Source: Rhizobiaceae bacterium
GTDB taxonomy: Bacteria; Pseudomonadota; Alphaproteobacteria; Rhizobiales; Rhizobiaceae
Assembly (NCBI GenBank): GCA_965232405.1
Contig: OZ246966.1
Location: 1,417,731 to 1,481,730 of the forward strand
Direction: 5' to 3'
DNA: 64,000 nt
Below are positions 55,315-58,766 of the stretch, one piece after another; within the stretch, counting starts at the first letter, position 1, and each line of letters starts with the position of its first letter. The position numbers were made by a program, and so were the translations under genes. The notes below the pieces were generated by a model that saw nothing but the letters and a program-made list of their open reading frames with translations, did no database searches and was not told where the DNA came from.

Positions 55315-57462
55315 CTATGCCGCCGCGTCACCGGCAACGCGCGGCCTGCCCTGAGCGGTGGCGAGAATGCGCGCCTCGACGAACTGACGCCGATCCTCGA
55401 CTGTCGCGGCGTCGATGCTGGTTTCCACGTCGACGAAACAGTCTCCTGCGCCGGCGAGCCGGGCGCTCACCAGAGCCTGTTCGCGCGCCATGCGTGTCGC
55501 CGTCTCCACCGCTTCATCTTCGGCCCCGAAGTCCTCGACATGATCCCCGACAACAAGCCGGAAGCAGCCCTCGTCCGGCTGGGTAACGACAGCCTCGACG
55601 CCGATGCGAACCTGGCCGACCACCGCGCCCACGGCGTTGGCGACATCGGCATGAGCGGGCAGGATGCAATCACTGCCGACGAGCGGGCCAAGCGCCGCAT
55701 AGTGCAGCGGTGCCGATGCGCCGAGCCCGATGACCGGACGGTCGAGGCTCATGGCGAGCTGCGCGAAACGGGACTTGCCGTCGAGCGTGCGCTGGACCAG
55801 CGCGTGAGAGACAGCAGCCTCGGCGTCGTGGCCATCCTCGGCGAGTGCTGTTTCCAGTATCGCCTCGGCCGATCTGCGTGTGAGTAGCGCCAGCACGCGT
55901 TCCGACAGGGCTTCTCCGGACTGCGCAATGCGGTTTCCCTTGAGGTCGCGCCTCAGTGCGACAAGTTCCGCGCCGAGGCGGGCGGCTTTCGCATCCCAGT
56001 TGGACTGGCGGCCAAGCACGTGGGCGGCGTCGGATGGCGTGAAGCCGCATATCAGAACCAGACCCCGGGCAACGAGCCGGGCGAGCACGGCGGTCTGCGA
56101 ACCGCCCGTCAGCAGCCGGTCGAGCGGGATTGGTGTTTCGGGAATGTCGGCGAAGAGCCGCGCCTCGATCGAAGTCAGGCCGGCTGCGAAACGCTCGGGC
56201 AGGCCGGCGCGCATGGCAAATCGGCCGTCGAGACGGCCGGGATTGGCCGCACCCGCCTGACGCTCCAGCGGGCCGGTGATCGCATCGCCATGCAGCTTCG
56301 AGGCCAGCGACAGCGGCACCAGGCGGCGGGGACCAAGGCGCAGTCCGGCTTCGAGCCGGCTATCGTCGACAGCCACTTCGGAATCGCCGCCCAGCCCGAA
56401 GGTGCGCATGGCGACGGCTTCCACATGGGTGCGCATGCCGCCGACGCGGGCGCCTTCGGGATCGAGGCGCGGACGACCACCGTCCAGCAGTGCGACGTCG
56501 GTCGTGGTGCCGCCGATGTCGGAGACGAAGGCGGCGTCGAGACCGGTGAGATGGCGCGCGCCGATGATGGAAGCAGCGGGGCCGGACAGGATGGTCTCGA
56601 TGGGCCGCTGGCGGGCGAAGGCTGCCGAGACCAAAGCGCCATCGCCACGGACGACCATGAGGGGTGCGCGTATTCCTCGCGCATCCAGAAACCCTTCCGT
56701 TGCGGCGATGAGGCGGTCGATCAGGCCGACAAGGCGGGCATTGAGAAGTGTGGTCAGCGCCCGGCGCGGACCGCCAAGCTTGGCGGAGAGTTCGTGGCTT
56801 GCGGTGACCGGCAGACCGGTCGTTTCGCGGATCAGATCAACGGCTGCGATCTCGTGGGCAGGGTTGCGGACGGCGAAATAGGCGCAGACGGCAAAACCGG
56901 TGACGGTTTTGGCCAGCTTCGGCAGCGCCTGTTCGAGCGGCGAAAGGTCCAGCGGCCTGGGGTTGCCGTGCCCGTCATGCCCGCCGGGCACGAACACCAC
57001 CGGGTCTTCGCCGAGTGCTGTCTTCAGCCCGTCGCGGTCGAGATCGGCCTCGCCGAAGCCGATCATGACGAGCGCGGCGCGCCCGCCCTGCCCCTCCACA
57101 ATGGCGTTGGTCGCCAGTGTGGTGGACATGGAGACCAGCGCTACCTTGGCCGGGTCGGCTTTTGCCTCGGCCAGAACCGCATCCGCCGCGTCGGCGATGC
57201 CCACCGCCAGATCGTGTCGGGTGGTCAGGGCCTTGGCCTTGGCGACGACCTCGCCGCTCCCCTGCCCTCCGCTAGGGCTCCGGGCGTTCGTCGCTTCAAT
57301 CGACAAATCGTTGTCGATTGACCGGCCTCCGGCCGACCGCTCCTCACCCTTGGCAACGACCTCGCCGCTGCCCGAACCGTCTCGGTACAGAACCGCGTCG
57401 GTGTAGGTGCCGCCGGTGTCGATGCCGAGCATCAGCGGGGCGGAAGGCGTCCTGGCGTGCAT
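55315..57462 (-). CDS. Hydantoinase/oxoprolinase N-terminal family protein, carrying a 37-aa insertion
   Basis: GIDTGGTYTD, SGPAAS, DIGGTTTD, GLGGDS. Confidence 0.9.
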   Translation of the reverse strand: MHARTPSAPLMLGIDTGGTYTDAVLYRDGSGSGEVVAKGEERSAGGRSIDNDLSIEATNARSPSGGQGSGEVVAKAKALTTRHDLAVGIADAADAVLAEAKADPAKVALVSMSTTLATNAIVEGQGGRAALVMIGFGEADLDRDGLKTALGEDPVVFVPGGHDGHGNPRPLDLSPLEQALPKLAKTVTGFAVCAYFAVRNPAHEIAAVDLIRETTGLPVTASHELSAKLGGPRRALTTLLNARLVGLIDRLIAATEGFLDARGIRAPLMVVRGDGALVSAAFARQRPIETILSGPAASIIGARHLTGLDAAFVSDIGGTTTDVALLDGGRPRLDPEGARVGGMRTHVEAVAMRTFGLGGDSEVAVDDSRLEAGLRLGPRRLVPLSLASKLHGDAITGPLERQAGAANPGRLDGRFAMRAGLPERFAAGLTSIEARLFADIPETPIPLDRLLTGGSQTAVLARLVARGLVLICGFTPSDAAHVLGRQSNWDAKAARLGAELVALRRDLKGNRIAQSGEALSERVLALLTRRSAEAILETALAEDGHDAEAAVSHALVQRTLDGKSRFAQLAMSLDRPVIGLGASAPLHYAALGPLVGSDCILPAHADVANAVGAVVGQVRIGVEAVVTQPDEGCFRLVVGDHVEDFGAEDEAVETATRMAREQALVSARLAGAGDCFVDVETSIDAATVEDRRQFVEARILATAQGRPRVAGDAAA
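57237..57369. repeat. Palindromic insertion flanked by 22-bp direct repeats inside the hydantoinase gene
   Basis: CCTTGGC(g/a)ACGACCTCGCCGCT at 57237-57258 and 57348-57369; inner palindrome TCAATCGACAA-atcg-TTGTCGATTGA at 57296-57321. Confidence 0.85.
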
Positions 57463-57531
57463 TATGCGGCAGAACAAGAGAGCGGGGACATCATCCCCGC
57501 CCTTTAGCGTGGGCAGATGCGCGGCGGAAGA

Positions 57532-57906
57532 CTACTCGATCAGATTGATCTCTTCCGTCATGCCGCCCTGGCAGACATAACAGCAGGTCTCGCAGCCATC
57601 GACATCGCCGGGGCCGACGCCCCAATAGGTGCCGGGATCGCCGGACACCCAGGCGCCGTAGCAGATCGTCTCGCCCTCCTCGCAGGCGAGCGGCAGCGCC
57701 TTGGTCTCGCCGTCGTCGAGGTAAAACACGTTGCCGTTGCCCGGCCAGATGTGGTCGCGGTCCTGGCTGTAGAGCTCCACCTCAACGGCGAACTCATGAT
57801 GGTTGTTCATCAGGAAGGTGACGTCGCCGGCCGAGGCCGCGCCAAGCGAAAGAAAAAGGGCCGCCAGAGCGGCAGCGGCGCCGCGCGCCATCGCGTTGAT
57901 TGTCAT
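57532..57906 (-). CDS. Small secreted Cys-rich hypothetical protein (124 aa)
   Basis: Signal peptide ending ASA|GD, six Cys (C-x6-C, C-x2-CC-x2-C); ATG 57906 preferred over the longer ORF call. Confidence 0.8.
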   Translation of the reverse strand: MTINAMARGAAAALAALFLSLGAASAGDVTFLMNNHHEFAVEVELYSQDRDHIWPGNGNVFYLDDGETKALPLACEEGETICYGAWVSGDPGTYWGVGPGDVDGCETCCYVCQGGMTEEINLIE

Positions 57907-58101
57907 TGTTGTTCCCCAAAACTCCCGAACGGCCATTCCGGCCGCACAGCGGATATTCGCATGGCGGCGGGTGGAAGTGTAGCGGGCGCTAATGGAATAT
58001 TTGTGCGGTTCAAGGTGGGCGCTGCGCGGCGGCGGGGAGCGGAGGGCAGGCTTTGGACTAAGTCGCAATTCCTGATGCGAGGCGGCCTTCGCAACCGTTC
58101 T

Positions 58102-58267
58102 GGCATGGATCCCCCGGGTCAAGCCCGAGGATGACGACCGGGAGGGGGCCACCGCAAATCATCAGCCGCAGAGAGTTCCATCAAGCGGCGATTTCGGCAC
58201 GGCGATGGAGACTGGCGGAATGCATATCCACTTCGTCATCCTCGGGCTTGACCCGGGGATCCATGCC
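58102..58267. repeat. Inverted pair of REP-like palindromes
   Basis: GGCATGGATCCCCCGGGTCAAGCCCGAGGATGACG (58102-58136) and its reverse complement with one C fewer (58234-58267). Confidence 0.85.
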
Positions 58268-58304
58268 TGACCGTCGCCGCTTCACCTGCATATCAGTCAC
58301 TCGC

Positions 58305-58766
58305 GCTTCATCGTTGCCACGCCCGCCGAAGCGTCTGGCCGTTGCACAGCGCCGTTTCGCGAAGATCGCTGCGCGATCTCGCGGGGCGCTTTCGCGACGA
58401 TCACTGCGTGATCGCGCTATCGCCAGAACCCTATGGGGTTCGGCGTAGGAAGACGGGCGGCCGTTCAGTCGCTCATCTGTAGGTTACGCGCGACCAAAAG
58501 GCCGCCCGTCCGGTGTTCTTGCCCCGAGTACCTCTTTCGAGGTCACCTGACCGCCTTATGTCAGGATATTGTCCGCTCGTGGCTCTCCGCAGCTTTCGCC
58601 TCAGAGGCCGGGCTGGCCACCAATCAAGAGGCCAAGACACAGCTACCCGTGGGCCCGGAGCTGGGGGCTCATCGCCCAGCAGCACCACCGTAGTGCTGCC
58701 GATCCGGCACCGTCCCTGCCACGCTCGCCCGGTTCGCGACCCGCGTTCCCGTGCAGGAGATGAAGC
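58305..58766 (-). ncRNA. Candidate large structured non-coding RNA or non-autonomous repeat element (~460 nt)
   Basis: At least 7 hairpins, GAAA and cUUCGg loops and G-U pairs all favour the minus strand; termini GCTTCATC/GATGAAGC pair; TATCCT just upstream. Confidence 0.6.

What the first reader, a model, noticed from the sequence alone, without database searches (positions are those of the whole stretch)
57237..57369. In-frame palindromic element adds 37 aa to a hydantoinase-family protein
A 22-bp direct repeat (21/22 identical, encoding SGEVVAK twice) is spaced by exactly 111 nt. It encloses a perfect 11-bp hairpin (57296-57321) and a small GGCC/GGCC hairpin. The frame is preserved, giving GEERSAGGRSIDNDLSIEATNARSPSGGQG just after the DTGGTYTD motif. 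This parallels Rickettsia palindromic elements that create new protein sequence, here with an apparent target duplication.
Basis: partly seen in the sequence, partly recalled or inferred. Interest (0 to 1): 0.65.

Follow-up and report, generated by a model that had tools for sequence, protein, structure and literature searches.

The report
In-frame repeat insertion in hydantoinase gene
An 89-base hairpin-forming repeat element, common in Mesorhizobium-like bacteria, has landed inside a hydantoinase-family gene together with a 22-base duplication that keeps the reading frame; it adds a floppy 37-residue loop, a bacterial example of "junk" DNA becoming protein sequence.

Summary
The gene at 55315-57477 (minus strand) carries 111 extra bases: an 89-bp element (57259-57347) flanked by a 22-bp direct repeat (21/22 identical). 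All 119 closest orthologues and all nine congeneric genomes lack the segment and have the 22-mer region once.

The element belongs to a real interspersed family:
- three copies in this genome, and 1-31 copies in 54 of 121 sampled genera of the same GTDB family (Mesorhizobium, Aminobacter, Pseudaminobacter, Aliihoeflea and others);
- a conserved 5' block, an 11-bp hairpin with compensatory changes at 10 of 11 pairs, a second variable hairpin, and a conserved 3' block;
- no Rfam match, no terminal inverted repeats, and no co-occurring Y1/RAYT transposase.

About 30% of copies sit exactly at a gene's end and supply its TGA stop (GGG-TGA-GGAG).

Of 84 copies examined, only this one has a flanking duplication. 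Because 89 is not divisible by 3, the 22-bp duplication is what restores the frame. The insert falls in a naturally length-variable turn between two beta strands and is predicted to be disordered. dN/dS shows no relaxed selection.

This is a new example of a known phenomenon (Rickettsia palindromic elements, intragenic REPs) involving an apparently undescribed element family.

The parts
55315..57477 (-). Hydantoinase/oxoprolinase-family gene (720-codon ORF from TTG; the 715-aa product starts at the ATG at 57462), host of the insertion
   Evidence: ORF list. Pfam PF05378 E=3e-31 and PF01968 E=7e-27. Orthologues are 66-82% identical and 664-692 aa long. dN/dS is 0.16-0.17, the same as between relatives.
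57348..57369 (-). Direct-repeat copy at the 5' side in gene sense (AGCGGCGAGGTCGTTGCCAAGG; encodes the first SGEVVAK, residues 32-38 of the 715-aa protein)
   Evidence: In the structure model this copy lies in the disordered loop.
57259..57347 (+). 89-bp interspersed repeat element. The covariance-model match is 57262-57349 on the + strand, so the gene reads the element's reverse complement. It encodes GEERSAGGRSIDNDLSIEATNARSPSGGQG.
   Evidence: Model R1 scores 103 bits, the second best of all copies. It is 88% and 85% identical to the two other copies in the genome. It is absent from all orthologues.
57237..57258 (-). Direct-repeat copy at the 3' side in gene sense (AGCGGCGAGGTCGTCGCCAAGG; encodes the second SGEVVAK, which continues into strand beta3, EVVAKAKAL)
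   Evidence: Relatives have this segment only once.
57296..57321 (.). Hairpin 1: 11-bp perfect stem with a 4-nt loop. This is the family's covarying helix.
   Evidence: I4. Across 45 distinct copies, 10 of 11 pairs show changes on both sides, 98% of cells are paired, and 0 of 500 shuffles reach the observed values.
57323..57335 (.). Hairpin 2: CGGCC-TCC-GGCCG. Its sequence varies between copies but it always forms a hairpin.
57264..57291 (.). Conserved 5' block of the element (GCCCTCCGCTAGGGCTCCGGGCGTTCGT), which includes the small GCCCT/AGGGC stem
   Evidence: These columns are invariant or nearly invariant in alignment A2. Fold.
57336..57349 (.). Conserved 3' block (ACCGCTCCTCACCC). Its reverse complement, GGGTGAGGAGCGGT, supplies the TGA stop codon of upstream genes in about 30% of family copies. 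Here it is read one frame over, as G-GGT-GAG-GAG.

Best explanation
A member of an interspersed, hairpin-forming repeat family was copied into the hydantoinase-family gene of this lineage after it split from its sequenced congeners.

The family. It is about 86-89 bp long, found in Mesorhizobium-like Rhizobiales, and normally sits just 3' of genes. It is oriented so that the mRNA reads GGGUGAGGAGCGG-hairpin-hairpin-...GGAGGGC.

The event. The insertion was atypical for the family because it also duplicated 22 bp of target sequence. An 89-bp insert alone would shift the frame (89 mod 3 = 2). The 22-bp duplication brings the total to 111 bp, or 37 codons. The element happens to be open in the frame used, one base off the frame in which it normally provides a TGA stop. 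The insertion therefore survived purifying selection.

Effect on the protein. The 37 extra residues (the first SGEVVAK copy plus 30 element-encoded, hydrophilic residues) loop out as a disordered excursion. They emerge from the turn between strands beta2 and beta3 of the N-terminal actin-like ATPase domain, just after the DxGGT phosphate-binding motif. This position tolerates loops of 8-18 residues in orthologues. The second SGEVVAK copy rebuilds beta3, so the enzyme most likely still works.

Mechanism of insertion (inferred, not shown). The genome has no Y1/RAYT transposase, no reverse transcriptase and no related integrase. No other copy has a target duplication. The most likely route is therefore a one-off host replication or repair event. 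This could be a template switch to another element copy followed by re-priming 22 nt upstream, or fill-in of a staggered break. It is less likely to be dedicated transposition.

Prediction. The 22-bp repeats flanking a palindromic insert should allow precise excision by replication slippage.
For: Shown directly:
- The insert and the duplication are present in the sequence.
- All 119 best orthologues have loops of 8-18 residues, against 48 here.
- Nine congeneric genomes have the uninterrupted site, with the 22-mer region present once.
- The element is a family member: three copies in the genome; matches in 54 of 121 family genomes, 1-31 copies each; named hosts are Mesorhizobium, Aminobacter, Pseudaminobacter, Aliihoeflea, Nitratireductor and others.
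- Hairpin 1 covaries strongly.
- Only 1 of 84 copies, this one, has a flanking direct repeat longer than 9 bp.
- It is the only local direct repeat in the genome that encloses a dispersed repeat.
- 25 of 84 copies, plus 6 of 10 copies in named Mesorhizobium, abut a high-GC3 gene that ends in the element's GGG-TGA. The hydantoinase gene reads the element in that same direction.
- The AlphaFold model has mean pLDDT 84 and pTM 0.81. Residues 31-68 have pLDDT 24-34 with no secondary structure, lying between strands 20-27 and 71-79.
- The closest solved homologue, 6yra, aligns the site to a short turn.
- dN/dS is 0.16-0.17 for pairs that include this gene, against 0.15-0.20 among relatives.
- No PF01797 (Y1 transposase) in this genome or in the four highest-copy genomes. 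No PF00078 reverse transcriptase. No homologue of the plasmid integrase that carries a copy.
Against: - Assembly support, expression and retention in the protein are therefore untested.
- The insertion is known from one genome only. The protein cluster has one member, and a junction scan of metagenome contigs found nothing.
- The template-switch mechanism is inferred from the absence of alternatives. No donor copy with matching flanks exists in the genome: the two other copies are only 85-88% identical. Junction microhomology is only 2-3 nt.
- Pairwise dN/dS averages over the whole branch, so it cannot exclude recent inactivation.
- The model's low confidence in the loop could simply reflect the lack of homologous rows for that stretch in the alignment.
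Confidence: 0.75

Rival explanations
1. Classical transposition. The element is a non-autonomous transposon, and the 22-bp repeat is a true target-site duplication made by a transposase that cuts the target with a 22-nt stagger.
For: The duplication abuts the element on both sides. The two other copies in this genome are also absent from relatives' orthologous sites, so the family has been mobile in this lineage. A filled/empty polymorphism is seen in Mesorhizobium. From my own knowledge, not tested here: some IS groups make long duplications, for example IS1634-like elements and part of the IS1202 group.
Against: None of 83 other copies has a flanking repeat longer than 9 bp, which matches the null expectation from mismatched flanks. 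The element has no terminal inverted repeats. There is no Y1 transposase in this genome or in the high-copy genomes, and no homologue of the integrase found next to plasmid copies.
Confidence: 0.13
2. The gene is already dead. The insertion disrupted folding or ATP binding, and the open frame is a recent accident rather than the result of selection.
For: The insert lies only about 10 residues after the DxGGT phosphate-1 motif. The insertion is younger than the species split, because the repeat copies differ at only 1 of 22 positions while dS to relatives is 0.6-0.7. Relaxed selection might therefore not yet be visible.
Against: The 720-codon frame is intact and conserved along its full length. 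dN/dS is not elevated. The site is a length-variable turn. The second repeat copy rebuilds strand beta3 in a confident model. The only difference between the two repeat copies is synonymous.
Confidence: 0.08
3. Assembly or consensus artefact: the 111 bp were introduced by mis-assembly through a repeat.
For: Reads could not be inspected. The insertion is seen in only one genome.
Against: The genome is a single 3.87-Mb contig. The insert differs by 12-15% from the other two copies in the genome, so it cannot be a collapsed or copied repeat. It is flanked by an imperfect (21/22) duplication and leaves the gene in frame. Mis-joins do not produce this pattern.
Confidence: 0.03
4. Adaptive gain: the element-encoded loop or its mRNA hairpins have acquired a function, such as a new interaction surface or translational or mRNA-stability control of this gene.
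For: The element scores as a fully intact family member (103 bits). The gene reads it in the same direction as the family's usual placement in 3'-UTRs.
Against: It is present in a single lineage. The peptide is hydrophilic and predicted to be disordered. No conservation data can exist for a unique event.
Confidence: 0.04

Closest known systems
Rickettsia palindromic elements (RPE-1 and relatives)
   Same: Both are interspersed palindromic repeats of about 100 bp that occur both between genes and, in frame, inside genes that are probably still functional, where they add surface peptide segments.
   Different: This is an unrelated sequence family in free-living or plant-associated Rhizobiales. 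Most copies here are extragenic and sit at gene 3' ends, and the in-gene case is rare: one clear case among roughly 94 copies examined. This insertion also carries a 22-bp flanking duplication.
REP/BIME elements, including intragenic REPs (Di Nocera et al. 2013, PMC3733652)
   Same: Both are GC-rich hairpin repeats found mainly downstream of genes and probably transcribed. Their ends often provide the stop codon of the upstream ORF, and occasional copies lie inside ORFs. Combination with other repeat modules into mosaics is seen here too.
   Different: This element is longer (86-89 bp, with two hairpins plus conserved single-stranded blocks). It has no GTAG or CGTC tag directly at the stem. 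No RAYT/Y1 transposase is present in this genome or in the high-copy genomes. Copy numbers are low (1-31 per genome).
Rhizobium-specific intergenic mosaic elements (RIME1/RIME2) and the Sm-repeats of Sinorhizobium meliloti
   Same: Both are roughly 100-bp intergenic palindromic mosaic repeats in Rhizobiales of unknown function.
   Different: Identity could not be tested, because the original paper and its sequences are not held. A blastn search of 72,556 plasmids, which include the Sinorhizobium megaplasmids, found only Aminobacter, Mesorhizobium, Indioceanicola and R. lentis records. The named genome hits are overwhelmingly of the Phyllobacteriaceae type.
Bacterial MITEs that insert into genes (e.g. 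Coxiella QMITEs, PMC5896051; reviews PMC10969869, PMC2229807)
   Same: Both are small non-coding mobile repeats that can be read through and add peptide segments.
   Different: MITEs are defined by terminal inverted repeats and short, constant target duplications. This family has neither.

Membership tests
Rickettsia palindromic elements (RPE) | Sequence similarity to an RPE family and occurrence in Rickettsia/Rickettsiales | tested here: not met
   The taxonomic half was tested and not met: surveys find the family only in Rhizobiales genomes. No direct sequence comparison with RPE consensus sequences was possible with the collections at hand.
Rickettsia palindromic elements (RPE) | Palindromic repeat inserted in frame in an otherwise conserved gene (functional analogy) | tested here: met
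REP / REPIN (RAYT-mobilised) | A cognate RAYT (Y1 transposase, PF01797) in genomes that carry the repeats | tested here: not met
   No PF01797 match in this genome or in G091, G099, G062 and G083, which carry 16-31 copies. Matches occur only in G068, G124 and in G049, which has no copies.
REP / REPIN (RAYT-mobilised) | A 20-40-bp palindrome tagged by GTAG or CGTC at one end, typically in inverted pairs | tested here: not met
   The unit is 86-89 bp, with two different hairpins and asymmetric conserved flanks. A CGTC lies 3-4 nt before hairpin 1 but is not at the stem.
REP-like behaviour | Location just downstream of genes, with the element's end providing the stop codon | tested here: met
   25 of 84 copies, plus 6 of 10 in named Mesorhizobium. 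Empty orthologous sites end in GGG-TAG or GGG-TGA.
MITE | Terminal inverted repeats | tested here: not met
   The ends GCCCTCCGC... and ...CGCTCCTCACCC are not inverted copies of each other. No terminal inverted pair was reported.
MITE | Constant-length target-site duplication at most copies | tested here: not met
   Only 1 of 84 copies has a flanking repeat longer than 9 bp. Duplications shorter than 6 bp were not assessed.
RIME1/RIME2 | Sequence identity to the published RIME consensus | not testable with these tools
   PMC177356 is not held. There are no Sinorhizobium hits among the plasmids.
Any Rfam RNA family | Covariance-model match | tested here: not met
   No hit on the element at E up to 10 in the window, or at E up to 5 in five other copies.
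Hydantoinase/oxoprolinase family (host gene) | Hydant_A_N and Hydantoinase_A domains above the Pfam cut-offs | tested here: met
   109 bits and 95 bits, against cut-offs of 25 and 23. The closest solved structure is 6yra, a 5-oxoprolinase, at E=3e-23.

The most novel reading that the evidence does not exclude
The element may belong to an undescribed class of structured repeat in Phyllobacteriaceae-type Rhizobiales that has no transposase and no terminal inverted repeats. It would spread by homology-assisted or template-switch capture at sequences resembling its own end (GGGTGA, that is, at stop codons) and act in mRNA 3' ends. The hydantoinase copy would then be a rare capture inside a gene. 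Its 22-bp flanking repeats around a palindrome would make it a reversible, slippage-excisable 37-residue module, so the population could switch between two enzyme forms.
Probability: 0.2. Interest if true: 0.6.

Novelty: new member of a known kind. Interest (0 to 1): 0.42.

Why it matters
The finding is a clean, datable example outside the obligate intracellular bacteria of a non-coding palindromic repeat being turned into protein sequence. It also shows how such an event can pass selection: a co-occurring 22-bp duplication fixes the frame and regenerates the interrupted beta strand, and the insert lands in a loop that already varies in length.

The work also documents a widespread repeat family in Mesorhizobium and its relatives. 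This family hugs stop codons and has a strongly covarying hairpin, yet it has no Rfam entry and no obvious mobilising enzyme. It affects gene-end annotation in these genomes, through element-encoded stops and C-terminal tails, and it is a candidate 3'-UTR regulatory or stabilising element.

Tried and rejected
- Rfam on the window copy and on five other copies: no match.
- Earlier-findings look-ups: nothing relevant to this element.
- Literature search by conserved 11-mers: only chance hits. The RIME paper is not held.
- RAYT/IS200 mobilisation: rejected, because there is no Y1 transposase in this genome or the high-copy genomes.
- Retroposition, which would explain a variable-length duplication: disfavoured, because the genome has no PF00078 reverse transcriptase.
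- Mobilisation by the tyrosine recombinase that carries a copy on Aminobacter and Mesorhizobium plasmids: no homologue in this genome.
- Using the nearby copy in relative G008 (1.4 kb upstream of its hydantoinase gene) as donor or empty-site comparison: that region is rearranged and rich in repeats, so it was uninformative.
- Exact junction mapping of this genome's copies B and C: the intergenic flanks are too diverged. Only the 3' junctions could be read; copy B overlaps a native TCACCC.
- A microhomology model for both junctions: only 2-3 nt are shared at the junctions. A 6-nt CTGCCC/GGGCAG match between the target and the element end exists but was not used in the product (my reading).
- Metagenome scan for the left junction: 0 hits.
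Full report
**1. The observation**

The window sequence shows the following features.
- CCTTGGCGACGACCTCGCCGCT lies at 57237-57258 and CCTTGGCAACGACCTCGCCGCT at 57348-57369. They are 21/22 identical with a spacing of 111.
- They enclose 89 bp that contain a perfect 11-bp hairpin (57296-57306 and 57311-57321) and a CGGCC-TCC-GGCCG hairpin (57323-57335).
- The stretch lies inside a minus-strand ORF, 55315-57477. Pfam identifies it as a hydantoinase/oxoprolinase-family protein (PF05378 and PF01968).
- In gene sense the region reads ...DTGGTYTDAVLYRDGSG-SGEVVAK-GEERSAGGRSIDNDLSIEATNARSPSGGQG-SGEVVAK-AKALTTRHD...
- The folds are more stable than dinucleotide shuffles, with z from -2.8 to -5.7.
- The whole genome has only 27 local direct repeats of at least 20 nt. 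This is the only one that encloses a dispersed repeat.

**2. It is an insertion specific to this lineage**

- The 8000 scored homologues include only one protein with the segment, the window's own. The next best are 78-66% identical and 664-692 aa long, and they show a clean gap.
- Among 119 orthologues, the loop between DTGGTYTDAVL and AKAK is 8-18 residues long. Here it is 48.
- Nine genomes of the same genus have the uninterrupted site at the DNA level, with the 22-mer region present once.
- The two repeat copies differ by one synonymous change, whereas dS to the nearest species is 0.6-0.7. The event therefore postdates the species split.

**3. The 89 bp are a member of a real repeat family**

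- The genome has two more copies, 88% and 85% identical. One lies between an SDR gene and an aldehyde dehydrogenase gene. The other lies between ybgC and tolQ. Both are missing from the orthologous sites of congeners.
- I built a covariance model from 19 copies. It finds 1-31 copies in 54 of 121 genomes sampled one per genus across the same GTDB family, sometimes in tandem.
- An exact 23-mer scan names the hosts: many Mesorhizobium species, Aminobacter, Pseudaminobacter, Aliihoeflea, Nitratireductor, Chelativorans, Paramesorhizobium, Oricola and Ahrensia, plus single hits in Brucella thiophenivorans and Afipia.
- The anatomy is as follows:
  - a conserved 5' block, GCCCTCCGCTAtGGCTCCGGGCGTTCGTCGCT;
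  - hairpin 1, whose sequence differs between subfamilies but which always pairs;
  - a variable hairpin 2;
  - a conserved 3' block, ACCGCTCCTCACCC.
- In hairpin 1, 10 of 11 pairs show changes on both sides, 98% of cells are paired, 0 of 500 shuffles reach the observed values, and the slid controls collapse.
- Many copies are joined to other repeat modules, such as a CCCCGCAAGGGGAGAG hairpin. The elements therefore form mosaics.
- No Rfam family matches. There are no terminal inverted repeats.

**4. How the family normally sits in genomes**

- Read as the reverse complement of my model, the element begins GGGTGAGGAGCGG.
- In 25 of 84 copies, a long high-GC3 ORF ends exactly at that TGA (or TAA). 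A few further genes run 20-73 nt into the element.
- Six of ten copies in named Mesorhizobium species do the same...VTHG*...GIAG*...KERG*.
- At one Mesorhizobium locus, filled and empty alleles coexist across species. The empty alleles end in GGG-TAG, or in GGG-TGA-GG, so they already resemble the element's end.
- The same holds for copy B in this genome, where relatives have a native TCACCC at the junction.
- A consensus fold of the reverse-complement strand is more stable (-32.9 against -28.4 kcal/mol). It tolerates G-U pairs (34) more often than A-C pairs (11).

Together these results suggest an element that lives in mRNA 3' ends, much as REP/BIME elements do. Di Nocera et al. report that REP ends provide stop codons and that occasional REPs lie inside ORFs.

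The hydantoinase gene reads the element in this same direction but one base out of register, as G-GGT-GAG-GAG. This avoids the TGA. That frame is open through this copy, as it is in about 40% of copies.

**5. The 22-bp duplication**

- I compared the flanks of 84 copies. Only the window copy has a flanking direct repeat longer than 9 bp. The rest match the null distribution from mismatched flanks. The duplication is therefore not a family signature.
- Its consequence is arithmetic: 89 mod 3 = 2 and 22 mod 3 = 1, so 111 bp = 37 codons. Without the duplication the gene would be frameshifted at codon 39.
- The duplication also regenerates the start of strand beta3.
- I therefore read the duplication as the reason this particular insertion could survive inside a gene. 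This is an inference from selection and ascertainment.

As for how it arose:
- the genome has no Y1/RAYT transposase, and nor do the genomes with the most copies;
- it has no reverse transcriptase;
- it has no homologue of the integrase that carries a copy on plasmids.

A host replication or repair accident is the most economical explanation. This could be a template switch into another copy followed by re-priming 22 nt upstream, or fill-in of a staggered break with captured filler. It is not demonstrated: junction microhomology is only 2-3 nt, and no donor with matching flanks survives.

**6. Consequence for the protein**

- An AlphaFold2 model built with a 120-sequence alignment is confident overall (pLDDT 84, pTM 0.81). 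It places strands at residues 10-16, 20-27 and 71-79.
- Residues 31-68 have pLDDT 24-34 and no secondary structure.
- The first SGEVVAK copy and the 30 element-encoded residues therefore form a disordered excursion. The second copy forms beta3.
- The closest solved homologue, 5-oxoprolinase 6yra, has a short turn at this position.
- dN/dS for this gene against four congeners is 0.16-0.17, indistinguishable from the values among the congeners themselves (0.15-0.20). The gene is most likely still functional.

**7. Comparison with known systems and novelty**

- The phenomenon, an interspersed palindromic repeat read through in frame, is known from Rickettsia RPEs, intragenic REPs and gene-borne MITEs.
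- This case is not a member of those families. It has no TIRs, no regular target duplication, no RAYT and a different taxon.
- Identity with the RIMEs of Sinorhizobium and Rhizobium could not be tested. The plasmid and genome hits are of the Phyllobacteriaceae type, not Sinorhizobium.
- I rate it a new member of a known kind. Two features are of some interest: the frame-restoring duplication, and the stop-codon-hugging habit of an apparently uncatalogued family.

**8. Limits**

- The insertion is known from a single genome.
- An artefact is nevertheless unlikely. The insert differs by 12-15% from the other copies in the genome, it is flanked by an imperfect duplication, and it leaves a 720-codon frame intact in a single-contig assembly.

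Noticed in passing
L021 2498-2583 (Aminobacter sp. NyZ550 plasmid pMET3, NZ_CP114193.1); also L016 1499-1584 (G002:C1): A copy of the same element lies, in the opposite reading direction, inside the annotated N-terminal ~100 residues of a site-specific (tyrosine) integrase next to repC. Four of the seven plasmid records with a hit (three Aminobacter, one Mesorhizobium) show this arrangement. It is either a second case of in-frame capture or an over-extended start annotation.
   Followed up: partly
L118 (G115:C18:196841-198325), element at 701-785: An element copy plus companion repeat modules lies between PaaC-like and PaaD-like phenylacetate-CoA oxygenase genes with no stop codon in frame. 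This gives a single 467-codon ORF that would fuse the two proteins through about 100 repeat-encoded residues. The genome is a 73%-complete MAG.
   Followed up: no
L182 6343-6428 (Mesorhizobium amorphae NBRC 102496): A 174-codon, high-GC3 ORF runs into the element in the same frame as the hydantoinase insertion and ends ...LGEERSAQRTKSQRFGFSSDERPEP*. Its C-terminal tail is therefore encoded by the element.
   Followed up: no
G000:C1:1042529-1042616 (outside the window; locus L012 1502-1589): Copy B of the element supplies or overlaps the TGA stop of an aldehyde dehydrogenase gene (...TIVFNHG*). It fills the short gap before the next gene, an SDR oxidoreductase. Relatives lack the element there.
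   Followed up: yes
G000:C1:1806599-1806740 (outside the window): A 35-bp perfect direct repeat (TCGAGGCAGGGGATGACACGGGATTTGAGGGTCAT) with a spacing of 107 encloses 72 bp of unique sequence. It may be another local duplication or insertion event.
   Followed up: no
L013 / L024 (G008:C12:75270-75353), and window 57532-58152: In the congener G008, an element copy sits 1.4 kb upstream of the orthologous hydantoinase gene, in a repeat-rich region. There the 206-aa Cys-rich secreted-protein gene (window 57532-58152) is present in two tandem, diverged copies.
   Followed up: partly
Flanks of many copies, e.g. L046-L051, L040, L049: A recurrent companion module follows the element: CTCACCCC-(G/A)CAA/CAGG-GGGGAGAG-ATNGG, a short hairpin. 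A CCCCTCTGTCCTGCCGGACC block precedes it in several genera. The mobile or repeated unit is therefore often a larger mosaic.
   Followed up: no
window 57532-58448: ORFs on opposite strands both translate to ...SSSSGLTRG... (57532-58152 minus strand; 58131-58448 plus strand). This points to an inverted pair of another short repeat just upstream of the hydantoinase gene, next to the structured-RNA region noted by an earlier finding.
   Followed up: no
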